DNA of 50,355 nucleotides. It comes from a virus. This document shows, piece after piece, positions 1,940 to 50,203 of this stretch. The first letter of the stretch is position 1. Every line of letters starts with the position of its first letter. The stretch lies in IMG/VR virus record IMGVR_UViG_3300045988_089750; one strand, given 5' to 3'. Below the pieces are notes generated by a model that saw nothing but the letters and a program-made list of their open reading frames with translations, did no database searches and was not told the origin of the DNA. Both the position numbers and the translations under genes were made by a program.

Positions 1940-2311
1940 TTAGTAACCTTCCGTTAATAAATCGTTCTTTACCATAGTTTTGATAGCAATAACCCTGCTA
2001 AGGTGTGCTTTATAGTCCGCTACTGCTTTCGCTTTGCGGTCTTCGTCCGTTTCTATACCCAACTGTGCGGCGTAATAGTCGTTAATCAAAGAAAATTCTT
2101 CGGTTTCGTCTATTTCGCTACGGATAACCGCACGTGTAAGGTTTTCGTAGTCCGGCTTCTGCCAAACCTGTACCGTATCGTAGTTGTAAACGGTCTTTTC
2201 GCCCGTTTCCGGGTCTTCTACCTTTTCTTCCACTATGTTGTAGTTATAGTGGTAAGAACCATTACCCAACGGTAAAATAATCGCGGGTCTAACGTCTGAA
2301 CTTGATTTCAT
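1940..2311 (-). CDS. Hypothetical protein
   Basis: ORF packed between the RT and the holin. No recognisable motif. Confidence 0.5.
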   Translation of the reverse strand: MKSSSDVRPAIILPLGNGSYHYNYNIVEEKVEDPETGEKTVYNYDTVQVWQKPDYENLTRAVIRSEIDETEEFSLINDYYAAQLGIETDEDRKAKAVADYKAHLSRVIAIKTMVKNDLLTEGY

Positions 2312-3440: not shown

Positions 3441-3553
3441 AGTATAGCTGAGAGCCGATATTCGCATTCGTATTCGTAGCCGTGTTATTCGTATTCGCGT
3501 ACGAAAGCCCGGCATTCGCGCTGTTATTCGCATTACCGCCGAACAAGACACCC
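3441..3553 (-). repeat. DGR template repeat (TR)
   Basis: Non-coding 113-bp segment between the accessory ORF and the RT. In the VR frame it reads GVLFGGNANNSANAGLSYANTNNTATNTNANIGSQLY, which is AAY-rich. It aligns without gaps to VR1, VR2 and VR3, and every mismatch is at a TR adenine. Confidence 0.92.
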
Positions 3554-3580: not shown

Positions 3581-3925
3581 CTACTCAAAATAATAGCGCG
3601 TTCCCGAAGCCCGCATAGTTACCTTTCGCGGGAAGGCGTTACGCTTCTTTATTTCCTGCAAAATGTATTTTATTTCGCTGGAATTTGTGAAGAACTTCTT
3701 TGCTTCGCTTTCGGGGTCGTCCTTCTTGAACTTTATTTTCACGAGGAAACGGTTCGCACCGAATTTCGTTTTCACGTCTTCGATAAAATCAATTAACCAA
3801 AACTGCAAATTGATTAGTTTCTGCTGGGTGGTTTCCGGGCAGTTGAAATGTTTGTTCGCTTCGTCCGGCTGGATGTTCAAGAACGAAAGGCTACCGTCAT
3901 CTGTGCTATTATTGTTTGAAGTCAT
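3581..3925 (-). CDS. Hypothetical protein in the DGR accessory (avd) position
   Basis: 114-aa ORF between the target gene and the TR, where Avd normally sits. I do not recognise an Avd-like four-helix-bundle sequence, so this call rests on position only. Confidence 0.45.
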   Translation of the reverse strand: MTSNNNSTDDGSLSFLNIQPDEANKHFNCPETTQQKLINLQFWLIDFIEDVKTKFGANRFLVKIKFKKDDPESEAKKFFTNSSEIKYILQEIKKRNAFPRKVTMRASGTRYYFE

Positions 3926-3968: not shown

Positions 3969-5303
3969 TTACGCGGCGGGGATAAAGCAAAGCCGAGAGC
4001 CGAGATGCGCAGACGTAATCGCAGCCGTGTAATTCGCATACGCGCACGAAAGCCCGGCATACGCGCCGTCATTCGCACTACCGCCGAACAAGAAACCCCT
4101 TTGCGCTACGCCACTGGCTGGTATGTTGGTATAGAAGTAGTCGGCAAAGTAGGTAGTAGAACCTGCGCCCACTTCCGTAGGCATATTTTCCCCGTATTCG
4201 CCTATCATCATGCGCTTAACATAACCTTCCTTGCGTGGAAGTTCGCCACGTTTTACGTAATTGTCATAGTTTGTATCTTGGTAGTTCGCCGGGTTATCGC
4301 AAGTATAGAAAGAACTGATGCCGCCGTCCGCGTCTGATTCAATGGCGCATTTGCATCCGTCCGTCCAACTCCAAACATGCCCGAACGGGTTTTCTATTCC
4401 TCGGTATGAAGGTACTTTTACTTTGGTAACTACGCCCGTGTCGTATTCGTCCGGCATGGTGTATTCTACCACACCCGAAGCGTTACCCAATGAATTGGTA
4501 GTACCGCATGGCACAAACGGATAGTAGCTGTTGAAGGTGTTCCACTTTGTACTGTTAAGCGTCGTAACGCCTGCGCCTAACCCGCCTTGCTTGTACCCTT
4601 CGCTCGTAGGTTGCGCGTTAAAATCAAGCTGGCAGTTAAGGTTAGCGTATTCAATCACGTAAAGCCAATAGGTCGCGTTTTGTGCCGCGTATAAATCGCA
4701 GTTCCATCCTGCGCTGTTCAATCCGGCTGCACCTCTGTTACGTGCGTATTTTCGGAAGTTGGTAAGGCTCGTTTGTGTAGCTGGACGACCTAAGAGGGTT
4801 CTATAAGTTCCGTCCCATGCCGTATTATTGTTTCCGCCCCGGAAAGCAGCCGTAGTATTTACCACACTGGCAAGTTTGGGCGTAGCTGATAAAGTTCTGT
4901 CTATCGTGGCTTCGTATGCGCTCCGGTACATCTTCGGCACTTCGATAAAGCCCGGTAGTTGGTATTGTGATATAAGGCAGGTAAACGTAGTACCGTCAAA
5001 TTCAAACTTACGGTAGTGCTTCGGTATTTCTACCATTACCATGCCGGAAGCTCCGGTAAGGTCTGCCGCTGCCCCGGTGTCCGTCTTCGTACTGTCGGTT
5101 TGATGAAGGTAGGTAACAACCTGCCCGGCATCGTTAAGCAAACAACGGCGCATAAGGGATTGAACCGGGAGCGAAACATGTAGTTCCGATCTTCCTACGC
5201 GTTCTAACGCGGTATCTGCCACGTTTATATTAATCTTTACGCCGTAATAGTAATCATAAGGAAACGCGGGCTTTGTGTTGCCCGCTGCAATAATTAAACC
5301 CAT
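3969..5303 (-). CDS. DGR variable (target) protein with C-type-lectin/FGE-like C-terminal domain; probable receptor-binding tail protein
   Basis: The C-terminus contains NPFGHVWSWTDG ... FLFGGSANDGAYAGLSCAYANYTAAITSAHLGSRLCF and carries VR1. The start is placed at ATG 5303 (MGLIIAAG) to avoid a 70-nt overlap with the upstream gene. The ORF track's alternative start is 5384. Confidence 0.85.
   Translation of the reverse strand: MGLIIAAGNTKPAFPYDYYYGVKININVADTALERVGRSELHVSLPVQSLMRRCLLNDAGQVVTYLHQTDSTKTDTGAAADLTGASGMVMVEIPKHYRKFEFDGTTFTCLISQYQLPGFIEVPKMYRSAYEATIDRTLSATPKLASVVNTTAAFRGGNNNTAWDGTYRTLLGRPATQTSLTNFRKYARNRGAAGLNSAGWNCDLYAAQNATYWLYVIEYANLNCQLDFNAQPTSEGYKQGGLGAGVTTLNSTKWNTFNSYYPFVPCGTTNSLGNASGVVEYTMPDEYDTGVVTKVKVPSYRGIENPFGHVWSWTDGCKCAIESDADGGISSFYTCDNPANYQDTNYDNYVKRGELPRKEGYVKRMMIGEYGENMPTEVGAGSTTYFADYFYTNIPASGVAQRGFLFGGSANDGAYAGLSCAYANYTAAITSAHLGSRLCFIPAA
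3986..4098 (-). repeat. DGR variable repeat VR1 (full length)
   Basis: Gap-free alignment to TR at offset +545. There are 17 mismatches, all at TR adenines, plus one non-A mismatch at the distal boundary (TR 3549). Confidence 0.92.
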
Positions 5304-5314
5304 AGTTATAATTT

Positions 5315-5575
5315 TTAATAGCCCCAAATCAGGGCGGTTGCTGAACTCGTTTCTTTTATCTCTCTGATAATTTCGGGGTTCCATCCCGTTTCAAAGCGCG
5401 TGCTTATAAATTCGCCTTCGGGCATTCCCCAAAGGTTTACTTCCAATACTATCGCCGCTTCGCCATCGTTTTTTATGCAAAAAGGCGTGTCCATTCGGAA
5501 GTTGCCACCGGAAAAATCCACGTTCCCGGCTACCGAAATTTGCGCGCTCACTAAATCGCCGTTTCTATTTTCCAT
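5315..5575 (-). CDS. Hypothetical protein
   Basis: 86-aa ORF between the tail fibre gene and the DGR target. No motif recognised. Confidence 0.5.
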   Translation of the reverse strand: MENRNGDLVSAQISVAGNVDFSGGNFRMDTPFCIKNDGEAAIVLEVNLWGMPEGEFISTRFETGWNPEIIREIKETSSATALIWGY

Positions 5576-21196: not shown

Positions 21197-21389
21197 GATT
21201 TAAAAAATAGGAAGCAAACACTTCACCGAAACTTCCAATTTTGAAAAAGAGTAGGCGGTAAGAAATAGGCGTATAAAACCACTGCATTGCCTGTTCATTT
21301 GCCCGACATTGAAATTAATTAGCTTCTGCGTGTGTTTAGTAGTCGGTAATATGGACGCGCTTTAAATCGCTTCATTTCCCCTTTGCGTT

Positions 21390-36031: not shown

Positions 36032-36048
36032 CGTCTTATTTTAATACG
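36032..36048. promoter_or_regulatory. 17-bp palindrome site 6 (CGTCTTA-TTT-TAATACG, 1 mismatch)
   Basis: Overlaps the stop of 36036..36644, 10 bp upstream of ATG 36021. Confidence 0.5.
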
Positions 36049-36644
36049 TCTTTTGGAACACTTAACTTTTTACTCAATAGGGTAGCAACCTTTTCGGCTG
36101 CTGCGCGAAACTCCTTGTTATACTTGTATTCGCTATCGTACCGCCGAAGGTAATAACATATCGTACTTTGGTCGTGTAAGGTTTCTTCTGCTATATGCTG
36201 GGTATTCTCTCCGCGTTTTTTACAATGATGCGCGTAAATCATCCGGGCGTAAACGTGCCAGCGGTTACGGCTGTCTTCTGAAATGGAAGCGAAGCTAACC
36301 CCCATAGCGGTAAGTATAGCCGTTTTTATATCCCGGTGTTTGGGTGGTTTCTCGTAGTTTATAATCAGTCCCAAACCTTCGGCTATGTATAGTTCCAGCC
36401 CTGCGCCCGTGCTGCGTTCCCAATTAGAAAGCATATAAATTGCGTCGCAATCGAGCAGAAGGCGAATATCTACTTTCATTTGTTCCTGCCAGCGCGAACC
36501 CGGCTTTAATTCATACCGCAATGGGTTTACAACCTCGTAACCCTTTGCTCTTAGTTCCGCTTCCGCTTTGCTGAACTTTTCCGCGTATTCGGCTACCGGA
36601 AGTCCGGTTATTTGCCCGCTTATATACACTTTGTGCTTCTTCAT
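36036..36644 (-). CDS. DUF4406 (nucleoside 2-deoxyribosyltransferase-like) domain fused to a DnaA domain-IV-like HTH
   Basis: The N-terminal KVYISGQITGLP...DAIYMLSNWERSTGAGLE resembles DUF4406. The C-terminal VYARMIYAHHCKKRGENTQHIAEETLHDQSTICYYLRRY resembles the DnaA C-terminal DNA-binding pattern. Confidence 0.5.
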   Translation of the reverse strand: MKKHKVYISGQITGLPVAEYAEKFSKAEAELRAKGYEVVNPLRYELKPGSRWQEQMKVDIRLLLDCDAIYMLSNWERSTGAGLELYIAEGLGLIINYEKPPKHRDIKTAILTAMGVSFASISEDSRNRWHVYARMIYAHHCKKRGENTQHIAEETLHDQSTICYYLRRYDSEYKYNKEFRAAAEKVATLLSKKLSVPKDVLK

Positions 36645-36747
36645 GTCTTTTAATCGTTTTTTTGCCCGTTAAGGCGTTATTGTATTGTTTTCCTTACATC
36701 TTACCGTCTGAAATACGATAGTTGAATATTGGGGTTCATTTGTACGT

Positions 36748-37464
36748 CTATCGCGGCGTTAGCTTTGTTAGTCTTGGTCGGTAACTTGAATTATCAAAGC
36801 CTATAAGGTCGAACATCTCTACAAATCGGTCGGCTACACGAACCCCGTAACGCTTGGCTATATCTTCGTCGCCTTCCAAGTTTGAGGTTATAATCGTAAA
36901 TAGCTGGCGGTCGTAACGATGGTATAGCAAATCTACCAACGGGCTAACCTCGTTTCCCCAAACCTTTAGGCTTGCTGGTTCTGTCCCTACGTCATCAATG
37001 CAAAGAAGCTCGGTATTCTTCAAATCCGCTAAAAGTTCCTGCTTTTCGCCTTTTGCAGCTTCTGTAAGTGCGGAAGCTGGAATAAAGGAAACTCCTTTAC
37101 GCTCAAATGATATATCGCTGTGGTAAATCGTGTTTATTAGCTGGGAAATTGCACGCGCTAATGTTGTCTTTCCGCATCCGGGTGTTCCGTATATGAATAA
37201 CCCCGGTTTCATGCTTTCGCCAACGAGCCAACGCGCCGCCATTGTAAGATGCTGCCTTGTCGCTTCGTCTTCTTGGTAAGAATAGCCCCGGTTTTCAACT
37301 TGGAAACGGTAACATTCGCGTAGCATGGCGGGCACGTCCTGCGTATAACGGTCAATCTTAAAGCGTGCTACGGCGGGGCTTCTTTTGCGTAGCAGGTTCG
37401 CAAATGCCACTATATCTATCCGTTGTATCGGTTGCTCCTGCTTTTTGTTCTCTGTTGTTCCCAT
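36748..37464 (-). CDS. DnaC/IstB-like AAA+ helicase loader
   Basis: Walker A GTPGCGKTT and Walker B LLCIDDVG. The start is uncertain: ATG 37464 overlaps the upstream gene by 107 nt, and the alternative is ATG 37326. Confidence 0.75.
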   Translation of the reverse strand: MGTTENKKQEQPIQRIDIVAFANLLRKRSPAVARFKIDRYTQDVPAMLRECYRFQVENRGYSYQEDEATRQHLTMAARWLVGESMKPGLFIYGTPGCGKTTLARAISQLINTIYHSDISFERKGVSFIPASALTEAAKGEKQELLADLKNTELLCIDDVGTEPASLKVWGNEVSPLVDLLYHRYDRQLFTIITSNLEGDEDIAKRYGVRVADRFVEMFDLIGFDNSSYRPRLTKLTPR

Positions 37465-38218
37465 TGTCTTTCCTTATTTTAATTCTTAGATGATTAATCA
37501 AATGCCGCGCCCATTCGGTATAATTTATGTGGGTATCTCCGGTTAGTTCCCATTCGTCTATAACTTCTTCGGCTTCCTTGCGCAATCGTTCGGGAGTGAC
37601 ATAAAGCTGCATACAAATGGTTTCTATCTGCGCCCTTTTGTTTTCGCTGAAAAATTCGGTTAGAAACTTACGGTTTTCGGTTTCCTTTCCGTTTGTACTT
37701 TCTCTCTCGCGCGCACCATCAAGAAGAACAGGAGAATGAGAATTATTATTAATCATATCAACATCATTACATATCATATCAATGTTGTTTTCGGTTGTTT
37801 TCGCTTGTTTTTTCAACCCTTCGGTTGTTTCGGTTGAAAAATCAACCGCCCGGTTGTTTGGGTTGTTTTGGCTTGTTTCCTCGGTTTCCGTATTCTTTTT
37901 CTTCTTTCGTGCGTTCTGATTACCTTTAGGCGCGCCCCCTAATTTGCCGTTAGCTTTATTCAACTGCACTGTTTCCGCATAACGCTTGTTATCAGATTCA
38001 AGACGTTTTCGGATGGGTGCAAATGCTATCCTAACGGTTTTGTTCGCCGTCATTGCTTCCAAATCTTCCGCAGCCTTCGTCCGTATAGCTTCGTTTTCGC
38101 TCTCTAATTGGTTATAGGCTCTAATTGCGCGGAATAACATAGCCGTTTCTTCGTCGTCAAGTTCATCAAGCACTGAAAGCAAATCCATATATAATACGAA
38201 TGAATTTTTATCGCCCAT
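37358..38218 (-). CDS. Replisome organizer / replication initiator-like protein (contains the iteron array)
   Basis: The N-terminal FVLYMDLLSVLDELDDEETAMLFRAIRAY resembles phage replisome-organizer N-terminal domains. It lies upstream of the helicase loader. The low-complexity linker (about aa 116-173) is encoded by the iteron element. Confidence 0.6.
   Translation of the reverse strand: MGDKNSFVLYMDLLSVLDELDDEETAMLFRAIRAYNQLESENEAIRTKAAEDLEAMTANKTVRIAFAPIRKRLESDNKRYAETVQLNKANGKLGGAPKGNQNARKKKKNTETEETSQNNPNNRAVDFSTETTEGLKKQAKTTENNIDMICNDVDMINNNSHSPVLLDGARERESTNGKETENRKFLTEFFSENKRAQIETICMQLYVTPERLRKEAEEVIDEWELTGDTHINYTEWARHLINHLRIKIRKDNGNNREQKAGATDTTDRYSGICEPATQKKPRRSTL
37699..37873. repeat. 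Origin-like iteron + AT-rich element, copy B (inside the replisome-organizer gene)
   Basis: Same GTTGTTTT(C/G)G iterons, GGTTGAAAAATCAACC inverted repeat and ATCATATCA AT-rich tract as 21390..21552. Confidence 0.85.
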
Positions 38219-38263
38219 GATAGGTATATTTTAGGGACACGCCCGAAGGCGCGCCCCGGTTAG

Positions 38264-39112
38264 TTAATAACTTTCTTCTTGTTCTTTGTATGCCAAACAA
38301 AAGGCTTTTTCTACAATCGCGTTGCAAGCGAAAGGCGAAGCAGCAAGTATGGAAATATCCACTACCTTAGATTCTTCGTTTTCCTTTTCTATACGCTCTT
38401 TTATCTTGCTGTTTATCCATGCGGTAATGACTACCTTAGCCGTATCTACGTCGCGCGTCTTTACAACAAAATCGTAGTTCTGCTTATTCGGTTCTTCTTC
38501 GGCTTCCGATTGTATTGCTACGTCGGCTTCAACCTTATAATACTTCGTATCGTTGCGCTGTTCTTCCCCGTCGTTACTTTCTTCGCCTTCCTCGTTTGCG
38601 CCTTCCTGCGCTTCCACGTGTTTCCGCAGGCGGTCGTTAAGGATTATAACCCTATCCATTAACTTTATGCCAACAATGTCGAACGGTTGGGTAAAATTCA
38701 ACTCTATATAGTCGGTCGCAACCTCATAGGCTTTGACTATGTTTTGCGCCTGCAATATGAAGTTATGCCGTTTGCAGCCAATGGTAGCGGAAATCTTGAA
38801 CGGGTAAAGGCTGGTTCGCTTGTTTTCGTAAGCGAGCCTTCGCTGGTTACTTACTTCTACTTCCTTTACGTCTTTGCTTTGCAAGTAGAAATTTATTTCG
38901 GTCGCCAAATCGTTATCTATATACTTCCCGCGCTCAAACAAAATTTCGTTGCGTTCAATGGTTACAACTTCGCCCGTTTCGTCGTCCACAAAATCCTCGT
39001 TCCATGTACGCAAAACGTTTGCTGCCAAGTATTTTCCTATTATCCGGCGTATATCCGAAGTCTTGAAGCGTACTTCGTCTTTTCGGGTCTGTATTTTTTC
39101 GTTCTGCTTCAT
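38264..39112 (-). CDS. Hypothetical protein
   Basis: 282-aa ORF with an acidic central region. No motif recognised. Confidence 0.55.
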   Translation of the reverse strand: MKQNEKIQTRKDEVRFKTSDIRRIIGKYLAANVLRTWNEDFVDDETGEVVTIERNEILFERGKYIDNDLATEINFYLQSKDVKEVEVSNQRRLAYENKRTSLYPFKISATIGCKRHNFILQAQNIVKAYEVATDYIELNFTQPFDIVGIKLMDRVIILNDRLRKHVEAQEGANEEGEESNDGEEQRNDTKYYKVEADVAIQSEAEEEPNKQNYDFVVKTRDVDTAKVVITAWINSKIKERIEKENEESKVVDISILAASPFACNAIVEKAFCLAYKEQEESY

Positions 39113-39381
39113 AGCTTATCCGCGTTAAAGTCTTTTGACGGTTTGAAAACAACAACCTTGCGGGCTGGAACTAATATGGTTTCGCCCGTATTTATGTTCC
39201 GGGCTGGTTTCGCCTTGCGTTGCTTCGTTTGAAAAGTACCGAAGCCGCGAATAGTTACCGTATCGCCGCCCGTCACTTCGTCCCGAATAACATCAAATGT
39301 ACGTTCTAATACTTCCTTTACTTGATAGCTGTTTAATCCGGTCTGTTCCGCTACCGAGTTCACTAATTCCTGTTTTGTCAT
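39109..39381 (-). CDS. HU/IHF-family DNA-binding protein
   Basis: MTKQELVNSVAEQTGL...VTIRGFGTFQTKQRKAKPARNINTGETILVPARKVVVFKPSK is the classic HU-fold pattern. Confidence 0.9.
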   Translation of the reverse strand: MTKQELVNSVAEQTGLNSYQVKEVLERTFDVIRDEVTGGDTVTIRGFGTFQTKQRKAKPARNINTGETILVPARKVVVFKPSKDFNADKL

Positions 39382-39926
39382 AGCTTCTCAATTAAAATTT
39401 GTTCGTATAAGTCTGTAAATTGGTTGCCCGCATACCGTGCCAAACGTGAAGCGTAGAAGCAAAGCCGAGAGCCGAGATGCGCATACGAATCCGAAGCCGC
39501 GTCACTCGTACCCGCGCACGAAAGCCCGGCAGAACCTTTGCCTTTCGCGTTTTCTTGTATATAGAAGTAAGGGTAGTATTTGTATTGGTCGGTATTGTTC
39601 CAATCCGGTTTCCAGCCTTCGTTAAGTGCTGCGGTAATAGTTTCCAATTTGCGGCGTGCTATTTCGTCCGATCTGAAGCCTTGCGCCTTCGCATTTTGTT
39701 CGTTTATCGGTTCTACGCCTAATACCTTACATGCGTCTTCGTAGGTCTTTACCCGGTCGGTTATTTCCTCGTAGTCTTCTTCCTTGTAGAAGTAATCGAA
39801 AATACTACCGTTCCCTTCGTCTTCGGTAAGTTTCTTTACGGTGTCTTGCGCTTCTTCTACGTTGTCGTATCTGCCTTGTAAATTCTCGTTCCCGTTCTCT
39901 TTTCTGTATAAACAAATCTTTTTCAT
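39378..39926 (-). CDS. Remote DGR target candidate 2 (small early-region protein with embedded VR2)
   Basis: 182 aa with no signal peptide. It contains GSAGLSCAGTSDAASDSYAHLGSRLCF, encoded by VR2, and is a paralog of 41946..42683. Confidence 0.8.
   Translation of the reverse strand: MKKICLYRKENGNENLQGRYDNVEEAQDTVKKLTEDEGNGSIFDYFYKEEDYEEITDRVKTYEDACKVLGVEPINEQNAKAQGFRSDEIARRKLETITAALNEGWKPDWNNTDQYKYYPYFYIQENAKGKGSAGLSCAGTSDAASDSYAHLGSRLCFYASRLARYAGNQFTDLYEQILIEKL
39458..39533 (-). repeat. DGR variable repeat VR2 (remote, truncated)
   Basis: Gap-free alignment to TR 3441..3514 at offset +36017. There are 15 mismatches, all at TR adenines. Homology ends just past the A-free block CGAAAGCCCGGCA. 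Confidence 0.85.
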
Positions 39927-39944
39927 GTCACTAAAATTTAAATA

Positions 39945-40340
39945 TTAAAATAATGTTCCCTGCTTGGGCTTGTGCGCGTCTTCGTAAAGTATGCGCCTTT
40001 GCCTTGCGATACTCAACCGTACTGCTTTTATAGCTTCTTCACGTCCTTTCAGGCTTTCTTCGTATTCCAAAAGGTCGCTTTCGGTCGTAGCTAAGAAATA
40101 GCCTTCGGAAGTTGCTATAAGTCCCGGTAGAAGGTCGTTTGTACGAATGTGGTTTATTATCTTCCTTAGCCGTGCCGCGTCTATCTTGTAGCTGTCACGT
40201 AACCGGGAAATAATATACTTATTCGTTACCGCGTTGGCTTTGCCTATCTTGGTTTTCAAGCCTTCAAGAATAATCGGAAGTATTACTTTCCTTTCGTATT
40301 CTGTCAGCGGTTGCGTTTCTTCTGAAAACCCTTTAATCAT
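39945..40340 (-). CDS. Hypothetical protein (possible winged-helix)
   Basis: 131-aa ORF in the early operon. Confidence 0.5.
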   Translation of the reverse strand: MIKGFSEETQPLTEYERKVILPIILEGLKTKIGKANAVTNKYIISRLRDSYKIDAARLRKIINHIRTNDLLPGLIATSEGYFLATTESDLLEYEESLKGREEAIKAVRLSIARQRRILYEDAHKPKQGTLF

Positions 40341-40351
40341 AGTGCTTGCAA

Positions 40352-41104
40352 TTAAAAAGGTGTTTTGTTGAAACTAATCCGTAGTCCGGGTTTTGCGACG
40401 TGTACCGTTTTTCCGGTGGCTTTTGCTATTCCGTCCCGGAAGGCTACCGCGTCGCCGTTCCCTTCGCTTATATGTATCAATACTATGTTATTAACCCGTG
40501 TTAGGTCGTTAGCCTTCAACGCGTCCAAACAAGTATAGTAGCTTAAATGGCTTCTCCGTACTCGTTCTTTCAATACTTCCGGTATATAACCTTCTGTTAC
40601 ATTGCGTTCCAATATGTCCGGGTCGTAGTTGCATTCAATTAATATATTGTTCAACCCGGCAAATGTGCAAGGCAAATAGAAAGTATCGGTAGCAAACAAT
40701 ACGCCGCCCGTTTCTTCATGCCAGACGTAGAAGCCCAACGGTTCGCGGCTGTCGTGCTTCGTGGGAAAGGGAATGATAGTAAAACCGCCCAACCGTAAAT
40801 GCTGGTAACTTCCGTTTTCCATCCTTATGTGGGTCGGTCGCCAGCAAGAATTAATCTTAGCGGCTTCTATCGTGCCTTTGGAAGCGTAAACCGGAACAAC
40901 GTAGTTTAAAACCTCATTAATACGCCCGGCATGGTCGCCATGTTCATGGGTAATGAGGCAGCCTACTATTTTCTTTACGTTGTTGCCCAACGCTGCTAAT
41001 ACCTTCTTGAATGGTATTCCAGCTTCAAGTAGAAGGGCTTCGCCCGCGTTTTGCAAAACGTAGGCGTTACCCTCTGAACTTGAACCTAATACGGTTAATT
41101 CCAT
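40352..41104 (-). CDS. MBL-fold metallo-hydrolase
   Basis: HxHxDH motif (ITHEHGDHAG) in the typical N-terminal context. Confidence 0.8.
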   Translation of the reverse strand: MELTVLGSSSEGNAYVLQNAGEALLLEAGIPFKKVLAALGNNVKKIVGCLITHEHGDHAGRINEVLNYVVPVYASKGTIEAAKINSCWRPTHIRMENGSYQHLRLGGFTIIPFPTKHDSREPLGFYVWHEETGGVLFATDTFYLPCTFAGLNNILIECNYDPDILERNVTEGYIPEVLKERVRRSHLSYYTCLDALKANDLTRVNNIVLIHISEGNGDAVAFRDGIAKATGKTVHVAKPGLRISFNKTPF

Positions 41105-41106
41105 AT

Positions 41107-41934
41107 TTAGAACAATGGTTTAGCGTTATTACTTCCTCGACCTTCCCGTGCTTGCGGCGGGTTAGCTGGCTCGCTTTGCGCCGTTTGTCCCTGCTGGGCT
41201 TGTATGGGTTGCCCGTCGATAACTCCAATAGTAGGCGCGGCATTCGCTTCTTCTTTTATTTCTTCGGCTACCGCATCCACTATCGGTACGCTGCTTTGTT
41301 CGTCTGCATCGCCGAAGTCGCACCCCGTAATGTACTCGTATAGGGCTTTCTTAGCCTTTCTTTCGGCTTTTCCGCGCAGTTGGTCGTGGCTGCTGTAATC
41401 ATCCTTCTTTACGGTTGCAATAATGCTAAAGCCGTTTTTTTCTCCGTTATACTCATAGTTTATTTTGCAAGGTATTTCGGCAAAGTTCTGCGTTTGCCCC
41501 TTGTCGTATGAGGTATCAATGAAGTATTTTACGCCCAGCTTGCGAAGAAGCGAAGTATAACCTTCCTTAGTGGGGTACATCCTTTCGGCTATTATATTGA
41601 ACTGGTTTCCGGTCGGAAGCAAGCCGATAGTAACCGCGTCTATGATGCAATCGCGCACTATGTCACGGGTGTAAAGAGGAAGCGGGGCGCGCCCGCCGCT
41701 TCTTGCACGCCCGTTTCGGTCTGTAAGAAATCCTATTTTCGTGTTCATCAAAGGCATGAAAACCTTATCCATTACTTCATCGGTCATGGCTTCGCGAAGA
41801 AGTGCTATTACGTTTACGGCTGTAAATGCCGCACCGAAGTTGCTTACTATCTGCAAAGCCGAAGCGTCCTTGCAGGCTAATTCAAACTTTTCTTTTGCTG
41901 CCAATACGGTAGCGGGTAAAGTGTTGGTGTTCAT
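41107..41934 (-). CDS. Putative single-strand annealing recombinase (RecT/Red-beta-like)
   Basis: Called from its context between the SMC-like ATPase and the MBL nuclease-fold gene, plus a loose resemblance (LPTGNQFNIIAERMYPTKEGYTSLLRK) to RecT-type cores. Not verified. Confidence 0.4.
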   Translation of the reverse strand: MNTNTLPATVLAAKEKFELACKDASALQIVSNFGAAFTAVNVIALLREAMTDEVMDKVFMPLMNTKIGFLTDRNGRARSGGRAPLPLYTRDIVRDCIIDAVTIGLLPTGNQFNIIAERMYPTKEGYTSLLRKLGVKYFIDTSYDKGQTQNFAEIPCKINYEYNGEKNGFSIIATVKKDDYSSHDQLRGKAERKAKKALYEYITGCDFGDADEQSSVPIVDAVAEEIKEEANAAPTIGVIDGQPIQAQQGQTAQSEPANPPQAREGRGSNNAKPLF

Positions 41935-41945
41935 ACTATCGTTAG

Positions 41946-42683
41946 TTAATTGTTGTTCATTATGTCCTTTAAAAAGTCGTCTATTCCGCCGCCTTTAATC
42001 ATCTTTTCAAAAGCTATTTCGCGGGTTGCTCGTTCTACTATCGGCGCGGACTGCTTTCCGGTAAGAAGTTCTTTCAAGCCCTTTATTATGGCTCCATAAT
42101 TTCCGCAAAAACCTACCATTACTCCGGTACTTCCTTCGCCATTTTTATCCTTTGTATCAGTGTCGCAACCTACTACGATAAGACCGCGTGAACTGCTTCC
42201 GTTACAGAATGGTACTAAATGCTTTTGCATTACTTCTGTGGTGGTCTTCAAAAAGTCGCTTTGGGGTTCTTCTTGGCTGCTTTCCGCTTGTTGTGTTTCT
42301 CCGTTTCCCGAAGCAAAGCAATAATAGTCACGGTACAAGTCCGCAAAGTGTTCGGCTGCGTATTTCGCGAGCGCGGACGTGGGAAAGCAAAGCCGAGAGC
42401 CGAAATGCGCATGCGTACCCGTAGCCGCGTAAGACGTATTCGCGCACGAAAGCCCGGCATTTACATAGCGGAATAGCGGGTAATACTTCCATTCGTTTTT
42501 GTCGTCCCAATTCGGTTTCCAGCCGTTATTAAGCGCACGGGTTATTACTGTCAGCTTGTGGTAGGCTAACATACTTCTTTGGTCTTCCTTCGGGAAAATG
42601 TTAAATACTTCTTCGTTAATCGGTTGAATGTTCAAAACTCTACAAGCGTCCTCGTAAGACACGATTTTCTTTTCTGTATTCAT
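41946..42683 (-). CDS. Remote DGR target candidate 3 (early-region protein with embedded VR3)
   Basis: 245 aa with no signal peptide. It contains NAGLSCANTSYAATGTHAHFGSRLCF, encoded by VR3. Its N-terminal half is paralogous to 39378..39926. Confidence 0.8.
   Translation of the reverse strand: MNTEKKIVSYEDACRVLNIQPINEEVFNIFPKEDQRSMLAYHKLTVITRALNNGWKPNWDDKNEWKYYPLFRYVNAGLSCANTSYAATGTHAHFGSRLCFPTSALAKYAAEHFADLYRDYYCFASGNGETQQAESSQEEPQSDFLKTTTEVMQKHLVPFCNGSSSRGLIVVGCDTDTKDKNGEGSTGVMVGFCGNYGAIIKGLKELLTGKQSAPIVERATREIAFEKMIKGGGIDDFLKDIMNNN
42386..42461 (-). repeat. DGR variable repeat VR3 (remote, truncated)
   Basis: Gap-free alignment to TR 3441..3516 at offset +38945. There are 13 mismatches, all at TR adenines. 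Confidence 0.85.
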
Positions 42684-42717
42684 AAATTTATTTATTAAAA
42701 TGGTTAATAATGTTCTG

Positions 42718-44769
42718 TTATTCTACTTTGAAGTCATCGGTAGTTACTACCAACTTTACAAGCTGGCTAACAACCGGGATAAACTTGTTAATACTTTCTG
42801 CGTTATCCACGAAAATAGGCGCACTAACGTTATGGAACGTGCAAAGGGTATTTATTATGTCAAGCCCGGCATTAACTTTCCCGGCTTGGTTCTTATCCGC
42901 GTATTTTACCCCGTCAATAAGGCAAATGCAATCCGGTTCTTTTTCGCCGTTTACAAGCGTCTTGTACATCTTGAACTGAACCCGGCTAAACAATCCGTTT
43001 ACGCGGCGTTCCACTTCCGTCATACGGGCTTTTATCAAGTCGGCTATTACTATTTCGCAGCCTTGTATTTCGGCGCGTTCCTGCGCCAGTTTTGCGGCTT
43101 CCCCGTTTAGTTCAGCTATGCGCTTTTCGTTGGCTTCTATAATTGCGCGAAGGTTTAGCTTACGTTTTACTTCATCAAGCCGGGCAGTAAGGTTGGCTTT
43201 CCGTTGGCGTATCTCTGTTCTGTTTGCCGTGTCTTCCGCGTTGAAGATTGGAAGTTGTTCGGAAAGTTCCTTTATTTCTTTTTCAAGCGCGACCCATTCC
43301 GGCAGGTCTTCTCCGTTAATATCCGGTTCGGTATTTACGCGGGGATTGTCGTTCAAAACCTTTTGCAACGCTTCACGATCTTCTTTCGCCTTTGTTACGG
43401 CGGTAGTATGGCTGGTTTCCAATTCGGCTAACGCTTTATCTATCCGGCTGGCTTCTTCTTCCTGCGATGCTATCATTTCGTTTAACCGCTGACCGTCCGT
43501 GTTAATTTTGTTAAGGCGTTCTTCCCGGTCTGCGTAGAATTTTTCGCGGGCGGCTTCCCGGTCGGTGTTGTACTTAGCTAATGCTACCGGGTCGGCGCAA
43601 GCGTGCTTGAACAACGGGCAAACAAGGCTTTCCGTAGCGGTAAATTCTTCGGCGTTTACTTTGTACCATCTTTTGCGTAGTTCGTTCTGCATTTGCTTGT
43701 AGCCTTCTATCGTGCTTTGCGTCCGTTTCTTCTCGTTCGTCAAACGGTCGTATTCGCTACGGTAACGGCTGGCTTCGCTGCGTTCGTCGTTTATAACCTG
43801 CTGTAACTTGCGGTCGGCATTATTGTAGGTTTCGTTCTTTTTGAACGCTTCGTTCCTTGCCGTTTCCTTTGCCTTAAATACTAAAGCGTGCTGGCTGCTA
43901 CGTTTGTCATTTATGGCGGTTTGTACCTTAGCGGCAGCTTCATAGGCGATACGGTTGGCTTCCGCTGCTGATGCGGCGGCTTCGTCTATGTCGTTCAATT
44001 CTTTTGTAAGCTGTTCCTTCTCGGTATTAAGGGCGGCATAATCCGGTGTCAGCGGGGTAGCGCGCGTTATTTCGTCAATACGTGTAGGTATCTTTTCCAG
44101 TTCCTTCGTTATCTTCTCCTTTTGCGCTGAAATCTCGCGTTTATAGTCTTCTACGGTTTTCCCGCTAAGCTGTTCTATCAAAGTGGCAAAGGCTGTATTG
44201 CCCTTCGCTATGTCTTCGTAGCTTACTCCCCCGGCAATCTGCAAAAGCATTTCACGTTGTGCCGTCCAATGAAGGGAAAGGAAATAGTAGGGGTTGGTAA
44301 TCATCTTGAAAACGGCTTCGGGTATAATCGCGTTTATACGTTCGTCGTATTCGCTTTTTGTTTTTAATGGGACTCCGTTATAGAAGTAGTCGGTATGGTG
44401 TCCCTTTAACTTCCTTTCCGTCTTTCCCTTCTCTGTTTTCCATTCTTCAACCAATACGCGGCGAAGTTCTACGGTTTCAACGCTTCCCGTTTCGGTATCT
44501 ATTATTTCTAACGTTCCGGCTACTTCGTGTTCAAGGTCGGGAATAAAATTGCCTTCCGCGTCGTTGGTCTTAATTCCGAATTTGCTATCTACATTCCCTT
44601 CGCTGTCTTTGCCCCAAAGAAGCCATGTAAAAGCGTCCATAATGGTAGTTTTTCCCGTACCGTTCCGTCCGCTGATGGTTGTAACTGTGTCGTTAAAGTC
44701 TATAACGACGTTACGCAAGCCTTTGAAATTAGCAAGGCTTAAACGTTTGATGATTGCTTTTTTGCTCAT
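42718..44769 (-). CDS. SMC/SbcC/RecF-like AAA ATPase with long coiled coil
   Basis: N-terminal Walker A (ISGRNGTGKTTIMDA), about 450 aa of coiled coil, and a C-terminal Walker B-like PIFVDNAESI. The start is set at ATG 44769 (MSKKAII), directly after the upstream stop. Confidence 0.8.
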   Translation of the reverse strand: MSKKAIIKRLSLANFKGLRNVVIDFNDTVTTISGRNGTGKTTIMDAFTWLLWGKDSEGNVDSKFGIKTNDAEGNFIPDLEHEVAGTLEIIDTETGSVETVELRRVLVEEWKTEKGKTERKLKGHHTDYFYNGVPLKTKSEYDERINAIIPEAVFKMITNPYYFLSLHWTAQREMLLQIAGGVSYEDIAKGNTAFATLIEQLSGKTVEDYKREISAQKEKITKELEKIPTRIDEITRATPLTPDYAALNTEKEQLTKELNDIDEAAASAAEANRIAYEAAAKVQTAINDKRSSQHALVFKAKETARNEAFKKNETYNNADRKLQQVINDERSEASRYRSEYDRLTNEKKRTQSTIEGYKQMQNELRKRWYKVNAEEFTATESLVCPLFKHACADPVALAKYNTDREAAREKFYADREERLNKINTDGQRLNEMIASQEEEASRIDKALAELETSHTTAVTKAKEDREALQKVLNDNPRVNTEPDINGEDLPEWVALEKEIKELSEQLPIFNAEDTANRTEIRQRKANLTARLDEVKRKLNLRAIIEANEKRIAELNGEAAKLAQERAEIQGCEIVIADLIKARMTEVERRVNGLFSRVQFKMYKTLVNGEKEPDCICLIDGVKYADKNQAGKVNAGLDIINTLCTFHNVSAPIFVDNAESINKFIPVVSQLVKLVVTTDDFKVE

Positions 44770-44770
44770 A

Positions 44771-45451
44771 TTACTGATATTTTTGAAGTGAATAAAATCC
44801 CGCGTCAAGACTTACGGTTATTTTCTCTAATTTCTTCTTTTGGGCTGCATAGGAGCGCGCTATGCTGTTCATGTAGCCCGTAAGGTTTACTATGTAGGTG
44901 CGCTTCTCTATGATGCAGTTTAGGGCTACGTCTAAGACGGCTTCCCAAACTTCCCGTACGCGTTCCGGCTGTACCGCTATTCTGTGCCGGATGATGTATT
45001 CCGTAACTTTTGCTTTACGGCTTTCAATCTCGGTTATTACCATTGAAAAATCCCCCGTTCGGTATGCCTGCAACACAATCGCGCAAAATTGGATGGCATT
45101 CAAATATTCTTCTTGTATGTTGGAAACGCTTTTTTTCTTTCTCAAACGTTCCCTAATCCGTTCTTGGAATGTATTACGGTCTATTAGTTCTATCTGCCCG
45201 CTGGCTGTTTCAACTATACAGTATTTTCGGCTAATCTCGCGCGGGTCTATGTTCTTTTCCGCCGAATAGAGGAAACGTTTAAGGCTTCCGGTGTATTTTT
45301 CCCCGTTATCCGCCTTTAATATCAATGCGTTATTGCATGGTTTCAATATACGCGGTTCTACTCCCCGGCAGTAGCTTCGTATCTGCCTGCTTTCCCTATT
45401 TATTTCGTATTTAGAAAAGCCGGGAATGTTAATCCAAATATTATTAATCAT
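44771..45451 (-). CDS. NUMOD4-motif DNA-binding protein
   Basis: The N-terminal WINIPGFSKYEINRESRQIRS resembles the NUMOD4 motif. The rest is unassigned. Confidence 0.45.
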   Translation of the reverse strand: MINNIWINIPGFSKYEINRESRQIRSYCRGVEPRILKPCNNALILKADNGEKYTGSLKRFLYSAEKNIDPREISRKYCIVETASGQIELIDRNTFQERIRERLRKKKSVSNIQEEYLNAIQFCAIVLQAYRTGDFSMVITEIESRKAKVTEYIIRHRIAVQPERVREVWEAVLDVALNCIIEKRTYIVNLTGYMNSIARSYAAQKKKLEKITVSLDAGFYSLQKYQ

Positions 45452-48609: not shown

Positions 48610-48896
48610 CTAAACCTTCGCCTATAAGCGATGGGATAAACCGTCGTTTCTTTGAAGCTATTGAAGCGATTGTTAGTTTGGGTAAGGTTAGCGCGTTGGA
48701 GGCGTTTTGCACGCTTTACGATTTGAGTGCGCCACGTTATAGGGAAATGCGGCTTACTTATGGTGTTTCTCCGAAGCCCGGCTACCAATCACGCTACAAG
48801 AATATAGAAGTAGAAGCGATTTATTCGCTGGTCGTTAATTATCCTATTTCCTCACGCTGGCTTATAACCGGGCGCGGTAAAATGCTTATCGAATAA
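48594..48896 (+). CDS. HTH-like DNA-binding protein adjacent to integrase (possible excision/regulatory factor)
   Basis: INRRFFEAIEAI...SRWLITGRGKM resembles the same repressor-like family. Its stop overlaps the integrase ATG (TAATG). Confidence 0.5.
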   Translation: MPRTIAKPSPISDGINRRFFEAIEAIVSLGKVSALEAFCTLYDLSAPRYREMRLTYGVSPKPGYQSRYKNIEVEAIYSLVVNYPISSRWLITGRGKMLIE

Positions 48897-50203
48897 TGAA
48901 GTTTTCTATTAAGTACCAATTATCGCCGCGAACGGAAGGGGATAGGCTTACGGAAAACGTGCCTATACGCTTACGGGTGTCTTTTGCTGGTATTCGTGTA
49001 GATTTACGTTCCGGCTATGTAATAGACGCGGAAAAGTGGGATAATAATAACGCCTGCGTGAAAGTCGGCGCAAAGAATAGTTTCAACCAAACGGCAGGCG
49101 AAATAAATCGCGCTCTAACAAACCTTTCTTCTATTGTTGAAGAAGTCCTAACCCGGTTTGAACTTGACAACCGCAGAACGCCAACTGCGAAAGAATTTAA
49201 GGCAGCTTTTGATGAAGCAACCGGAAGGAAGAAGAAGGACGTTACGCCGGACTTCTTCACGGTCTTCGACAAATTTGTAGTAGAAGCTGGTACGGCTAAT
49301 AGCTGGGTTCCGGCTACTTATACGAAGTTTAGCAGTTTGCGTAAGCATCTATACGCATATATGCCACAGCAAATACTAAATCTACTAACAAAGGAAAACC
49401 TACAAGGCTTTGTTAAATACCTGCAAGATGCGGGGCAAATGAATACGACCGTAAGCAAGTATATGAGTTATGTACGTTGGTTTCTCCGTTGGGCTTGTAA
49501 TAACGGCTACTATAATGGGCTTTTGCATGAACAATATAAACCGCGTTTCAAGGGGATAGACTGCAAAGAAGTTATCTTCCTTTCATGGGAAGAACTGCAA
49601 CACTTTCTAAACTATCAATTCCCGGAAAACCGCAGTTCTTTGTCGTGCGTACGTGATGTGTTTTGCTTTTGCTGCTTTACTGGGTTGCGCTATTCCGATG
49701 TAGCCCGGCTACGTCCCTGCGATGTCAAACGGACAACAAACAAACCTTTTATATCCATCGTTACTCTGAAAACCGAAGACCGTTTGCATATAGAACTGAA
49801 CAAATACGCGCTTCAAATACTTGACAAATACAAAAACATCAAATTCCCCAAAGGGTTAGCCCTTCCGGTTATCAGCAATGCGAAAATGAACGAATACCTT
49901 AAAGAAGCTGCCGAAATAGCTGGAATAAAAGAACCCGTTAGAATAGTGTTTTTCAAAGGAAACAAACGTTATGAAAATGTATTGCCGAAGTGCGAACTTC
50001 TTACTACTCATAGCGGAAGAAAAACGTTTATCTGCAACGCTATAAGGCTGGGTATTCCAACTAACGTTATTATGGAATGGACGGGACATAGTGATTACAA
50101 AGCAATGAAGCCGTATATAAAAATAGTAGATGCGGTTAAAGAGGAAAACATGTCTAAATTTGACACCTTTTCCGAAGAAGAAAAGGGCAATAGTAAAAAA
50201 TAG
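48896..50203 (+). CDS. int: Tyrosine recombinase / phage integrase
   Basis: Bacteroidales-type integrase with an N-terminal arm-binding region. The catalytic region includes GLRYSD, HSGRKTF and GHSDYKAMKPYIK (R...HxxR...H...Y). Confidence 0.9.
   Translation: MKFSIKYQLSPRTEGDRLTENVPIRLRVSFAGIRVDLRSGYVIDAEKWDNNNACVKVGAKNSFNQTAGEINRALTNLSSIVEEVLTRFELDNRRTPTAKEFKAAFDEATGRKKKDVTPDFFTVFDKFVVEAGTANSWVPATYTKFSSLRKHLYAYMPQQILNLLTKENLQGFVKYLQDAGQMNTTVSKYMSYVRWFLRWACNNGYYNGLLHEQYKPRFKGIDCKEVIFLSWEELQHFLNYQFPENRSSLSCVRDVFCFCCFTGLRYSDVARLRPCDVKRTTNKPFISIVTLKTEDRLHIELNKYALQILDKYKNIKFPKGLALPVISNAKMNEYLKEAAEIAGIKEPVRIVFFKGNKRYENVLPKCELLTTHSGRKTFICNAIRLGIPTNVIMEWTGHSDYKAMKPYIKIVDAVKEENMSKFDTFSEEEKGNSKK

What the first reader, a model, noticed from the sequence alone, without database searches (positions are those of the whole stretch)
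39378..42683. DGR-diversified paralog pair without signal peptides in the replication/recombination operon: candidate intracellular variable binders
ORFs 39378..39926 and 41946..42683 share three blocks besides the VR. These are (S/T)YEDAC(R/K)VL..(Q/E)PINE, NxGWKP(D/N)W...(Y/W)KYYP(Y/L)F, and LCF....LA(R/K)YA...F(T/A)DLY. They are much smaller than the tail target and keep only a shortened version of its pre-VR segment (YFADYFYTN versus YYPYFYIQE and YYPLFRYVN). This suggests a miniaturised lectin-like scaffold. Neither has a signal peptide or TM helix, and both lie in the early operon. To my knowledge, phage DGR targets are normally tail or receptor-binding proteins. Hypervariable cytoplasmic early proteins could instead bind fast-evolving host factors such as defence components or restriction machinery. 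That role is an inference only. I cannot check databases to tell whether this family has been described.
Basis: inference. Interest (0 to 1): 0.85.

Follow-up and report, generated by a model that had tools for sequence, protein, structure and literature searches.

The report
Small non-tail phage hypermutation targets
Two small soluble proteins in this Bacteroides phage's DNA-recombination gene block are real, actively hypermutated targets of the phage's retroelement; they belong to a large unnamed family already glimpsed in related gut phages, and what they bind is still unknown.

Summary
ORFs 39378..39926 (182 aa) and 41946..42683 (245 aa) are paralogs, 48% identical over 120 aa. Each carries a 65-nt variable repeat that differs from the template repeat (3441-3553, beside RT 2289..3323) only at template adenines. 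In metagenomes, near-identical copies vary at exactly the 12 adenine-encoded codons.

Both belong to phrog_11581, an unnamed family with no Pfam model and about 3,000 clusters at 50% identity. It occurs almost only in Bacteroidota and Ignavibacteria prophages. In 52 of 80 genome loci, 2-4 tandem copies sit directly upstream of a template repeat and an RT 50-68% identical to this one. Paralog sets are therefore the norm, and the family is the cognate target of this RT clade.

Homologs are remote, non-tail targets in phage Versailles, in crAss-like cr52_1 and in LoVEphage/Quimbyvirus. For the last, a non-structural hypervariable target was published in 2021 and the theme noted again in 2025, so the novelty claim is overstated.

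A lectin-like fold is not supported: there is no PDB fold match, and profile similarity to the tail target covers only 27 columns. Neither protein has a hydrophobic segment, and the genes sit in early or recombination modules in four phage types. This favours an intracellular variable binder, but the ligand is inference only.

The parts
39378..39926 (-). Remote DGR target 2: 182-aa soluble acidic protein. It has an N-terminal beta-beta-alpha-beta domain (aa 1-51, 39774..39926) and a phrog_11581 family domain (aa 55-182, 39381..39764).
   Evidence: ORF. phrog_11581 match at E 2e-37. More than 120 database variants are 93-96% identical and vary almost only at aa 137-151. AF2 model pLDDT is 79. 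The N-terminal domain resembles DUF7336-type viral proteins in BFVD.
39467..39531 (-). VR2 core (65 nt; codons 133-153, AGLSCAGTSDAASDSYAHLGS). The conserved IMH-like GGCTTTGCTT follows immediately.
   Evidence: All mismatches to the TR fall at TR adenines. The 12 variable codons match the population entropy peaks.
41946..42683 (-). Remote DGR target 3: 245-aa fusion protein. The N-terminal phrog_11581 family domain (aa 1-125, 42309..42683) carries the VR. The C-terminal 120 aa (41949..42308) are homologous to a stand-alone ~100-aa protein that relatives encode between the SbcC-like and RecT-like genes.
   Evidence: hypervariable at aa 80-94. Searches show the stand-alone C-terminal homolog, L044 7344..7646. 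The AF2 model is poor (pLDDT 45).
42395..42459 (-). VR3 core (65 nt; codons 76-96, AGLSCANTSYAATGTHAHFGS). It is internal to the protein, ending about 150 aa before the stop. The same IMH-like GGCTTTGCTT follows.
3441..3553 (-). Template repeat (TR). The 65-nt core shared with all three VRs is 3450..3514. The 3' end reads TCGGCTCTC|AGCTATACTG (IMH*-like), against GGCTTTGCTT in the VRs.
2289..3323 (-). DGR reverse transcriptase (344 aa) with IGNYLSQ and YADD motifs.
   Evidence: RVT_1 at E 1e-19 and phrog_1423 at E 2e-127. Motifs. It is 50-68% identical to RTs that sit directly next to tandem family genes in other genomes.
3581..3925 (-). Candidate Avd-like accessory protein (114 aa, phrog_19665).
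   Evidence: Homologs follow the RT in many family cassettes. There is no detectable similarity to Bordetella Avd and no NCBIfam hit, so the assignment rests on position only.
3969..5384 (-). Cassette-proximal tail-type target (471 aa, phrog_5302). VR1 lies at 3986-4098 and is longer (~110 nt) than VR2 and VR3.
36036..45451 (-). Co-directional recombination/replication block that holds both remote targets. Gene order: SbcC-like ATPase 42718..44808, target 3, RecT-like-position ORF 41107..41934, MBL-fold hydrolase 40352..41104, phrog_2113 ORF 39945..40340, target 2, HU 39109..39381, phrog_35807 ORF 38264..39112, DUF6291 ORF 37358..38218, DnaC-like ORF 36748..37464.
   Evidence: The same gene order occurs in about 55 viral contigs and in phage Versailles.

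Best explanation
The two ORFs are additional remote targets of the phage's single diversity-generating retroelement.

Mechanism of diversification. The RT copies the TR transcript with errors at adenines. The cDNA replaces the VR in the tail gene and also the two VRs about 35-39 kb away. The remote VRs match only the 3' 65-71 nt of the TR. They share its 3' boundary: TCGGCTCTC, followed by a VR-specific GGCTTTGCTT. Their homology starts at a 13-nt adenine-free block, TGCCGGGCTTTCG, which also lies inside VR1. This block is the likely 5' crossover site for a partial replacement; that step is inferred, not shown. Twelve codons can vary (one TAC, six AAY, four ACG, one ATC), giving about 4.7e10 protein variants per target.

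What the proteins are. They belong to a large unnamed family (phrog_11581) of small, soluble, acidic proteins. This family is the cognate target of this RT clade in Bacteroidota phages. It usually occurs as 2-4 tandem paralogs directly upstream of the TR and RT. Here the pair has been dispersed into the recombination module, and one copy has fused to a conserved module protein.

Structure. The constant helical scaffold presents the VR as a roughly 35-residue excursion between the KYYP(W/Y)F and GSRLCF segments.

Function (inferred). The most likely role is a small repertoire of intracellular variable binders made with early or recombination genes. Their likely ligands are fast-evolving host or competitor factors.
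For: Diversification is shown directly:
- TR/VR mismatches fall at adenines only.
- The RT carries DGR motifs.
- Both proteins are hypervariable in nature at exactly the predicted codons, with the N/S/T/Y/H/D/A spectrum.
- The same pattern appears in seven or more related lineages.

Family and cassette linkage:
- The representative-protein search found 3051 hits at E<=1e-3.
- 52 of 80 genome loci and about 20 of 80 viral loci have tandem family genes followed by a TR with adenine-only mismatches, then an RT.
- Homologs are remote targets in Versailles and in crAss-like cr52_1.
- In LoVEphage-type genomes the VR region occurs at three places per genome, as published.

Non-structural context, by genomic inference:
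- The recombination module is conserved in about 55 contigs.
- The cassette lies in the early region of Mu-like prophages, after MuA/MuB-like genes.
- It lies in a methyltransferase-rich island in BI-TP1.
- It lies in a small-ORF region of cr52_1.
- The proteins have no hydrophobic segment.
- Similarity to the tail family phrog_5302 is limited to about 30 VR residues.

Fusion: relatives encode a stand-alone homolog of the C-terminal half of ORF 41946.
Against: - Nothing here shows expression timing, cellular location or a ligand.
- Virion association is not excluded.
- The predicted structure is unreliable at the VR, so surface exposure of the variable residues is not demonstrated.
- Neither target matches any known defence or anti-defence model.
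- The 5' crossover role of the adenine-free block and the IMH role of GGCTTTGCTT are read from sequence only.
Confidence: 0.72

Rival explanations
1. The proteins are virion-associated. They could be accessory receptor-binding or decoration proteins, or proteins ejected with the DNA, that happen to be encoded outside the structural module. In that case their diversification serves adsorption or entry, as for Mtd.
For: They share the VR and the GSRLCF segment with the tail target and are diversified from the same TR. GenBank annotates the Versailles homolog as 'tail protein'. Small phage proteins without signal peptides can be packaged.
Against: The 'tail' label rests only on about 30 VR residues matching phrog_5302. 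In four unrelated phage architectures the genes sit among early, recombination, transposition or methyltransferase genes, never among tail genes. One copy is fused to a recombination-module protein.
Confidence: 0.13
2. They are lysogen-expressed sensors or exclusion factors. The prophage would keep a diversified repertoire of cytoplasmic binders that recognise proteins of superinfecting phages, protecting the host. This resembles the DGR-diversified putative antigen sensors reported in multicellular cyanobacteria.
For: The phage is temperate: it has an integrase at 48896..50203 and a copy lies in a B. thetaiotaomicron chromosome. The family is overwhelmingly prophage-borne. Paralog repertoires of 2-4 would suit a recognition function. 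A precedent for defence-linked DGR targets is cited.
Against: No effector domain is fused or adjacent. There is no PADLOC hit. The genes are co-directional and tightly packed with lytic-cycle recombination and replication genes, not with the integrase and repressor region. The family is also present in crAss-like phages.
Confidence: 0.12
3. They are collateral or decaying targets. VR-like sequences would be passively overwritten by a DGR that exists for the tail gene, and the proteins would have no selected variable function.
For: The remote VRs use only part of the TR. Some metagenomic variants carry in-frame deletions around VR3.
Against: In most genomes the family is the only cassette-adjacent target, in 2-4 copies. 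The scaffold is strongly conserved, with N102, W105, P107, W109, K116, G152, R154, L155, Y165 and F170 invariant in the 49-sequence alignment A6. Reading frames stay open across hundreds of variants.
Confidence: 0.03

Closest known systems
Quimbyvirus / LoVEphage second DGR target (ORF 80/84 of Benler et al. 2021, PMC8008677; gp84 of Bacteroides phage BI-TP1)
   Same: It is a homologous protein: 34% identity, tblastn E down to 4e-13, with the same conserved blocks. It is distal from the RT cassette and outside the structural module. It is diversified from the same TR as a tail-module target; the VR region occurs at three places per genome. It was published as a non-structural hypervariable protein implicated in phage-host conflict.
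   Different: There is one remote target there, against two here. The neighbourhood there is methyltransferases, a nuclease and a tRNA ligase, rather than SbcC/RecT-like/MBL/HU/DnaC genes. The LoVEphage protein has a longer VR that includes an LWGGPANHGAY segment. The RT there is reported as frameshifted. The authors called the domain a C-type lectin, which I could not reproduce for this family.
Distal second VRs in four Bacteroidota prophage species (Dahlman et al., Nature 2025, PMC12629997)
   Same: These are temperate Bacteroidota phages whose DGR has a tail target and also a second VR far from the RT, near counter-defence genes.
   Different: Only a short remark and a figure are available. 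No family definition is given. I could not determine whether this phage clade is among the four. Here there are three VRs.
Bacteroides phage Versailles (ON453897) protein WAK79127
   Same: It has the same gene order (SbcC-like, recombination protein, MBL hydrolase, NinB-like, family protein, replisome organizer, DnaC-like). Its VR matches a TR next to an RT about 44 kb away, with adenine-specific mismatches.
   Different: It has a single remote copy, is annotated 'tail protein', and has a longer VR (~112 nt). I found no paper in the library that discusses it.
Canonical C-type-lectin-fold DGR variable proteins (Mtd of BPP-1, TvpA, TaqVP)
   Same: They work the same way: adenine-directed retrohoming of a TR copy into a VR that encodes a ligand-binding surface. 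AAY codons dominate. A conserved G-x-R-hydrophobic segment closes the VR.
   Different: There is no detectable sequence, profile or predicted-fold similarity outside the VR. The domain is much smaller (~120 aa) and largely helical in the model. The VR is not C-terminal, and in ORF 41946 it lies in the N-terminal half.
Tentaclins (Baykov et al. 2023, PMC10743442)
   Same: They are the second target of a two-target phage DGR, with the diversified domain at the N-terminus followed by other domains.
   Different: Tentaclins pair a C-lec domain with Ig-like domains and are proposed to be surface adhesins. Here no Ig or other Pfam domain is found, and the partner domain belongs to a recombination module.

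Membership tests
DGR variable protein (target of mutagenic retrohoming) | A VR/TR pair in the same genome whose differences fall at TR adenines. | tested here: met
   VR2 has 15 mismatches and VR3 has 11, all at adenines, with 0 of 50 non-A sites changed. Across 30 VRs the counts are 289/540 at A sites and 3/1410 at non-A sites.
DGR variable protein (target of mutagenic retrohoming) | A DGR-type reverse transcriptase next to the TR. | tested here: met
   RVT_1 and phrog_1423 matches, with IGNYLSQ and YADD motifs. The RT ends 118 nt from the TR.
DGR variable protein (target of mutagenic retrohoming) | Ongoing diversification in natural populations, restricted to the adenine-encoded codons. | tested here: met
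   Entropy peaks fall only at aa 137-151 of ORF 39378 and aa 80-94 of ORF 41946, across 121 and 86 near-identical proteins.
DGR variable protein (target of mutagenic retrohoming) | An IMH element at the 3' end of the VR that differs from IMH* in the TR. | tested here: inconclusive
   All three VRs share GGCTTTGCTT after TCGGCTCTC, where the TR has AGCTATACTG. No common downstream hairpin was evident, and function was not tested.
DGR variable protein (target of mutagenic retrohoming) | VR at the extreme C-terminus of the target. | tested here: not met
   The VR ends 29 aa before the stop in ORF 39378 and about 150 aa before the stop in ORF 41946. This is a usual feature of targets rather than a mechanistic requirement.
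DGR variable protein (target of mutagenic retrohoming) | An Avd accessory protein in the cassette. | tested here: inconclusive
   A 114-aa phrog_19665 ORF lies between the target and the TR, and its homologs accompany the RT elsewhere. It shows no similarity to Bordetella Avd and has no NCBIfam hit.
phrog_11581 / Quimbyvirus-type non-structural DGR target family | A significant match to the family profile over the whole domain. | tested here: met
   E values are 2e-37 and 8.5e-37. Conserved motifs are shared with 150 representatives.
phrog_11581 / Quimbyvirus-type non-structural DGR target family | Encoded outside the virion structural module. | tested here: met
   The genes lie in the recombination/replication block here and in about 55 contigs. 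Other contexts are the early region of Mu-like prophages and a methyltransferase island in BI-TP1.
phrog_11581 / Quimbyvirus-type non-structural DGR target family | Absence from virions / intracellular location. | not testable with these tools
   This needs virion proteomics and fractionation. Only hydropathy is available: maximum 19-residue values of 0.15 and 0.95.
C-type lectin-fold DGR variable proteins (Mtd/TvpA/TaqVP type) | Sequence or profile similarity to a CLec/FGE-sulfatase/DUF1566-type domain beyond the VR. | tested here: not met
   None of the 111 members scanned matched any such Pfam family. No PDB sequence matched at E<=10. hhalign against Mtd gave probability 0.2%. hhalign against the tail targets aligned only 27 VR columns.
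C-type lectin-fold DGR variable proteins (Mtd/TvpA/TaqVP type) | A three-dimensional fold superposable on a solved CLec variable protein. | tested here: inconclusive
   Foldseek of the AF2 model against the PDB gave a best E of 1.8 and no CLec entry. However, residues 124-147 have pLDDT below 50, and residues 102-159 are mostly coil in the model.
Phage tail / receptor-binding protein (phrog_5302) | Homology over the body of the tail protein. | tested here: not met
   The matches cover only residues 130-160 and 74-103 (profile positions 515-545 of 548), which is the VR.
Tentaclins | [quoted passage not shown] | tested here: not met
   No Ig-like or any other Pfam domain is found in ORF 41946. 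Its C-terminal half matches a recombination-module protein of relatives.

The most novel reading that the evidence does not exclude
The family is a previously undefined DGR scaffold, either non-lectin or radically minimised. Bacteroidota phages of at least four architectures (lambdoid-like, Mu-like, Quimby-like, crAss-like) would use it as a small intracellular, antibody-like repertoire of 2-4 independently diversified binders. These would be expressed early to neutralise or sense fast-evolving host defence or competitor proteins. The fusion in ORF 41946 would then show the variable domain being used to retarget a recombination-module protein.
Probability: 0.22. Interest if true: 0.85.

Novelty: new member of a known kind. 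Interest (0 to 1): 0.5.

Why it matters
Nearly everything known about phage DGR function comes from tail-fibre tropism switching. A second class of target, small and soluble and encoded with early genes, would mean phages also hypermutate proteins that act inside the cell. That has been suggested twice but never tested.

This window supplies a tractable case:
- It is a temperate phage, and a copy lies in a cultured B. thetaiotaomicron genome.
- It carries two such targets plus a tail target on one TR.
- Natural variants are abundant.
- The family turns out to be the main cassette-adjacent target of a whole RT clade across Bacteroidota.

Defining the family also corrects mis-annotations, such as 'tail protein' in phage Versailles. 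It also gives DGR surveys that scan only around the RT a profile with which to find remote targets.

Tried and rejected
- Megablast of 38000-44000 against 50,697 phage records found no close relative.
- Pfam, NCBIfam and PADLOC gave nothing for either target.
- Pfam on all 111 alignment members gave only scattered chance hits.
- Pfam on ten longer family members, scanned for fused effector domains, gave nothing.
- PDB sequence searches found no similarity to any solved structure. The family profile and the tail-target alignment returned no hit at all, and the LoVEphage homolog returned only one chance match (E 0.75, beta-glucuronidase).
- The AF2 model of ORF 41946 was unusable (pLDDT 45), so its C-terminal domain remains unassigned. 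PHROGs and Pfam on that half and on its stand-alone homolog also gave nothing.
- I looked for a common hairpin downstream of the three VRs and found no shared structure.
- I considered that the tail-target pre-VR segment was retained in the small proteins, and rejected it on the hhalign result.
- I considered that the paralog pair was a peculiarity of this phage, and rejected it because tandem sets of 2-4 are the common state.
- Literature searches for a description of phage Versailles' remote target found nothing. Searches for DGR-diversified non-structural or counter-defence phage targets turned up only the two short published remarks; no paper found defines the family.

Full report
**What is in the window**

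The window is a 50,256-bp phage genome assembled with a 99-nt terminal overlap. It carries a tyrosine integrase at 48896..50203. A near-identical copy of ORF 39378 lies in a 6.17-Mb Bacteroides thetaiotaomicron chromosome, so this is a temperate Bacteroides phage.

A complete DGR cassette sits on the minus strand:
- tail-type target 3969..5384 (phrog_5302)
- a 114-aa phrog_19665 ORF, 3581..3925
- the template repeat, 3441-3553
- a reverse transcriptase, 2289..3323, with IGNYLSQ and YADD motifs

**The observation**

They are 48% identical over 120 residues, E 3e-37, and all three conserved blocks and the VR are present.

A repeat search independently groups four copies: the TR, VR1 in the tail gene, and one copy in each small ORF. 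In the shared core, VR2 differs from the TR at 15 of 21 adenines and VR3 at 11 of 21. None of the 50 non-adenine positions differs in either. Fisher p values are 6e-11 and 1e-7.

The exact cores are 39467..39531 and 42395..42459. All three VRs end in TCGGCTCTC followed by GGCTTTGCTT, where the TR has AGCTATACTG. This is the expected IMH versus IMH* arrangement, although its function was not tested.

**Diversification is active**

A search of 5.8 billion proteins with ORF 39378 returned more than 120 separate clusters at 93-96% identity. They differ almost only at residues 137, 139-143, 145-148, 150 and 151. These are exactly the codons that carry adenines in the TR. The residues found are N, S, T, Y, H, D and A at AAY codons, T/A/S/P at ACG codons, and I/F/V/L at the ATC codon.

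ORF 41946 behaves the same way at residues 80-94. At the DNA level, 30 distinct VR cores from 16 sources show 289 of 540 template-A sites mismatched, against 3 of 1410 other sites. The twelve variable codons allow about 4.7e10 protein variants per target.

**The family**

Both ORFs match phrog_11581, function unknown, at E about 1e-37. They match no Pfam, NCBIfam or PADLOC model.

A profile search of 1.84 billion representative proteins found 3051 members at E<=1e-3. Most are 120-190 aa. The shared motifs are:
- K(T/S)(F/Y)EDAC..LG
- ALNEGW.P(D/N)W
- KYYP(W/Y)F
- GSRLCF
- LA.YAG.QF..LY

A scan of 185,579 species genomes placed the family almost entirely in Bacteroidota, with some Ignavibacteria and Chlorobi. 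The orders include Bacteroidales, Chitinophagales, Flavobacteriales, Cytophagales and Sphingobacteriales.

In 52 of those 80 loci, a TR lies within the 6-kb flank and its mismatches fall only at adenines (for example 17/17 and 21/21). In 48 loci an RT 50-68% identical to this one lies in the flank, typically just downstream of the TR. Usually 2-4 tandem family genes precede the TR. About twenty viral contigs show the same compact cassette.

The family is therefore the cognate target of this RT clade, and paralog sets are the rule.

**Genomic context**

About 55 viral contigs share this gene order: SbcC-like, an optional gene, RecT-like-position ORF, MBL hydrolase, phrog_2113 ORF, family gene, HU or phrog_35807, replisome organizer, DnaC-like. 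Within each of seven sequence groups, close relatives differ by 7-8 residues in the 19 VR columns, against 1-4 in the other roughly 105 columns.

The cultured phage Versailles has the same layout. Its homolog, annotated 'tail protein', is a remote target of a TR 44 kb away.

Other contexts are also non-structural:
- The crAss-like phage cr52_1 has a homolog whose VR differs from the TR at 12 positions, all adenines.
- Compact cassettes in L075 and in an Elizabethkingia prophage lie in the early region of Mu-like elements, after MuA/MuB-like genes.
- In BI-TP1, a LoVEphage-type genome, the homolog lies among methyltransferases and a tRNA ligase. Its VR region occurs three times per genome.

In no case is the gene in a tail module. 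The only similarity to the tail family is the VR itself.

**ORF 41946 is a fusion**

More distant relatives encode a stand-alone 100-aa protein between the SbcC-like and RecT-like genes. It is homologous to the C-terminal half of ORF 41946. The variable domain was therefore added to a resident module protein. This leaves the VR about 150 residues from the C-terminus, which is unusual for DGR targets.

**Fold**

The AF2 model of ORF 39378 has a mean pLDDT of 79. It shows:
- a confident N-terminal beta-beta-alpha-beta domain, which resembles DUF7336-type viral proteins
- helices at 55-101 and 160-178
- a low-confidence excursion at 124-147, which contains the VR

Foldseek against the PDB found nothing better than E 1.8 and no lectin fold. 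Profile comparisons with Mtd and with the tail targets found no similarity beyond 27 VR columns.

Some family members, including the LoVEphage protein, have a longer VR with a WGG..N.GAY segment that resembles the tail target's VR. A very divergent lectin-like origin therefore cannot be excluded. The mini-lectin proposal is unproven, not disproved.

**Prior knowledge**

Benler et al. 2021 (PMC8008677) reported that Quimbyviridae DGRs diversify a second, distal, non-structural protein nested among defence-related genes. They contrasted this with the structural targets known before.

Dahlman et al. 2025 (PMC12629997) noted four Bacteroidota prophage species with a second VR distal from the RT, near counter-defence genes. 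The 2025 paper cites the 2021 paper for LoVEphage. The LoVEphage/BI-TP1 protein is a homolog of the ORFs studied here.

The kind is therefore known, and this is a new member. It has some variant features: two remote copies, a recombination-module setting and a fusion. I found no paper in the library that defines the family, its tandem cassettes or its spread across Bacteroidota.

**Mechanism and function**

Shown: one TR, three VRs, adenine-specific replacement, and ongoing diversification.

Inferred: the 13-nt adenine-free block TGCCGGGCTTTCG is present in the TR and in all VRs. It marks where homology to VR2 and VR3 begins, so it is the likely 5' crossover for partial replacement.

Also inferred: the proteins act inside the cell as variable binders. 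The grounds are the lack of export signals, the early or recombination context in four phage types, and the fusion partner.

What they bind is unknown. The MBL-fold neighbour has a sub-threshold hit to the anti-Pycsar protein Apyc1, but this is too weak to build on.

**Verdict**

The intracellular-binder idea is reasonable and already in the literature. The lectin-scaffold claim and the claim of unprecedented novelty are not supported. Interest is moderate. The function of this abundant target class is a real open question, and this phage makes it directly testable.

Noticed in passing
window 21371-21537 and 37682-37859: A 97-nt segment is repeated at 99% identity (21441-21537 and 37763-37859), with a 64-nt, 73%-identical stretch just upstream of each copy. 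One copy lies inside the DUF6291 replisome-organizer-like ORF 37358..38218. The other lies in the intergenic strand-switch region. The sequence is rich in GGTTGTTT iterons, which suggests a duplicated origin-like element.
   Followed up: no
window 40352-41104 (-): The MBL-fold hydrolase between the two targets has a sub-threshold Pfam hit to the anti-Pycsar protein Apyc1 (E 1.5e-5, 25 bits against a cutoff of 50). It is the only hint of a counter-defence function in the block, and it is weak.
   Followed up: no
L002 5863-6444 (Bacteroides phage Versailles ON453897, 10181-10762): The family homolog WAK79127 is annotated 'tail protein'. It lies in the recombination module and matches tail proteins only through its VR, so this is probably a mis-annotation that could propagate through PHROG-based pipelines.
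   Followed up: partly
window 41946-42683 variants P0225, P0227, P0202, P0213, P0224: Several metagenomic variants of ORF 41946 have in-frame deletions of 4-21 residues within or next to the VR. They may be assembly artefacts across a hypervariable site, or imprecise retrohoming products.
   Followed up: no
L075 4159-12277; L120 79-9197: Mu-like transposable prophages carry the whole DGR (two family genes, TR, RT, and in L075 a phrog_19665 ORF) in their early region, with no tail target in the flank. They also encode a MuA-like transposase, a MuB-like protein and an ATPase. One is in Elizabethkingia miricola.
   Followed up: partly
window 3969-5384 (-), residues ~19-37: The tail-type DGR target has a hydrophobic N-terminal segment (Kyte-Doolittle 10-residue mean of 2.6). 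This is unexpected for a tail-fibre-like protein.
   Followed up: no
L005 3118-4359 and L006 3172-3552 (crAss-like phage cr52_1): The cr52_1 tail target translates with two in-frame stops under table 11, which is consistent with stop-codon recoding. A tmRNA gene is annotated about 2 kb from the remote family target.
   Followed up: no
window 36036-36644 (-): This ORF combines a DUF4406 / nucleoside 2-deoxyribosyltransferase-like domain with a DnaA C-terminal helix-turn-helix-like region. It is an odd fusion at the end of the replication block.
   Followed up: no
L113, L122, L145 (Dyadobacter sp. Leaf189, 1.89-1.95 Mb of contig_1): Three separate family loci lie within about 60 kb of one chromosome. 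Only one of them has an RT and TR in its flank. The others may be further remote targets or DGR-free copies.
   Followed up: no
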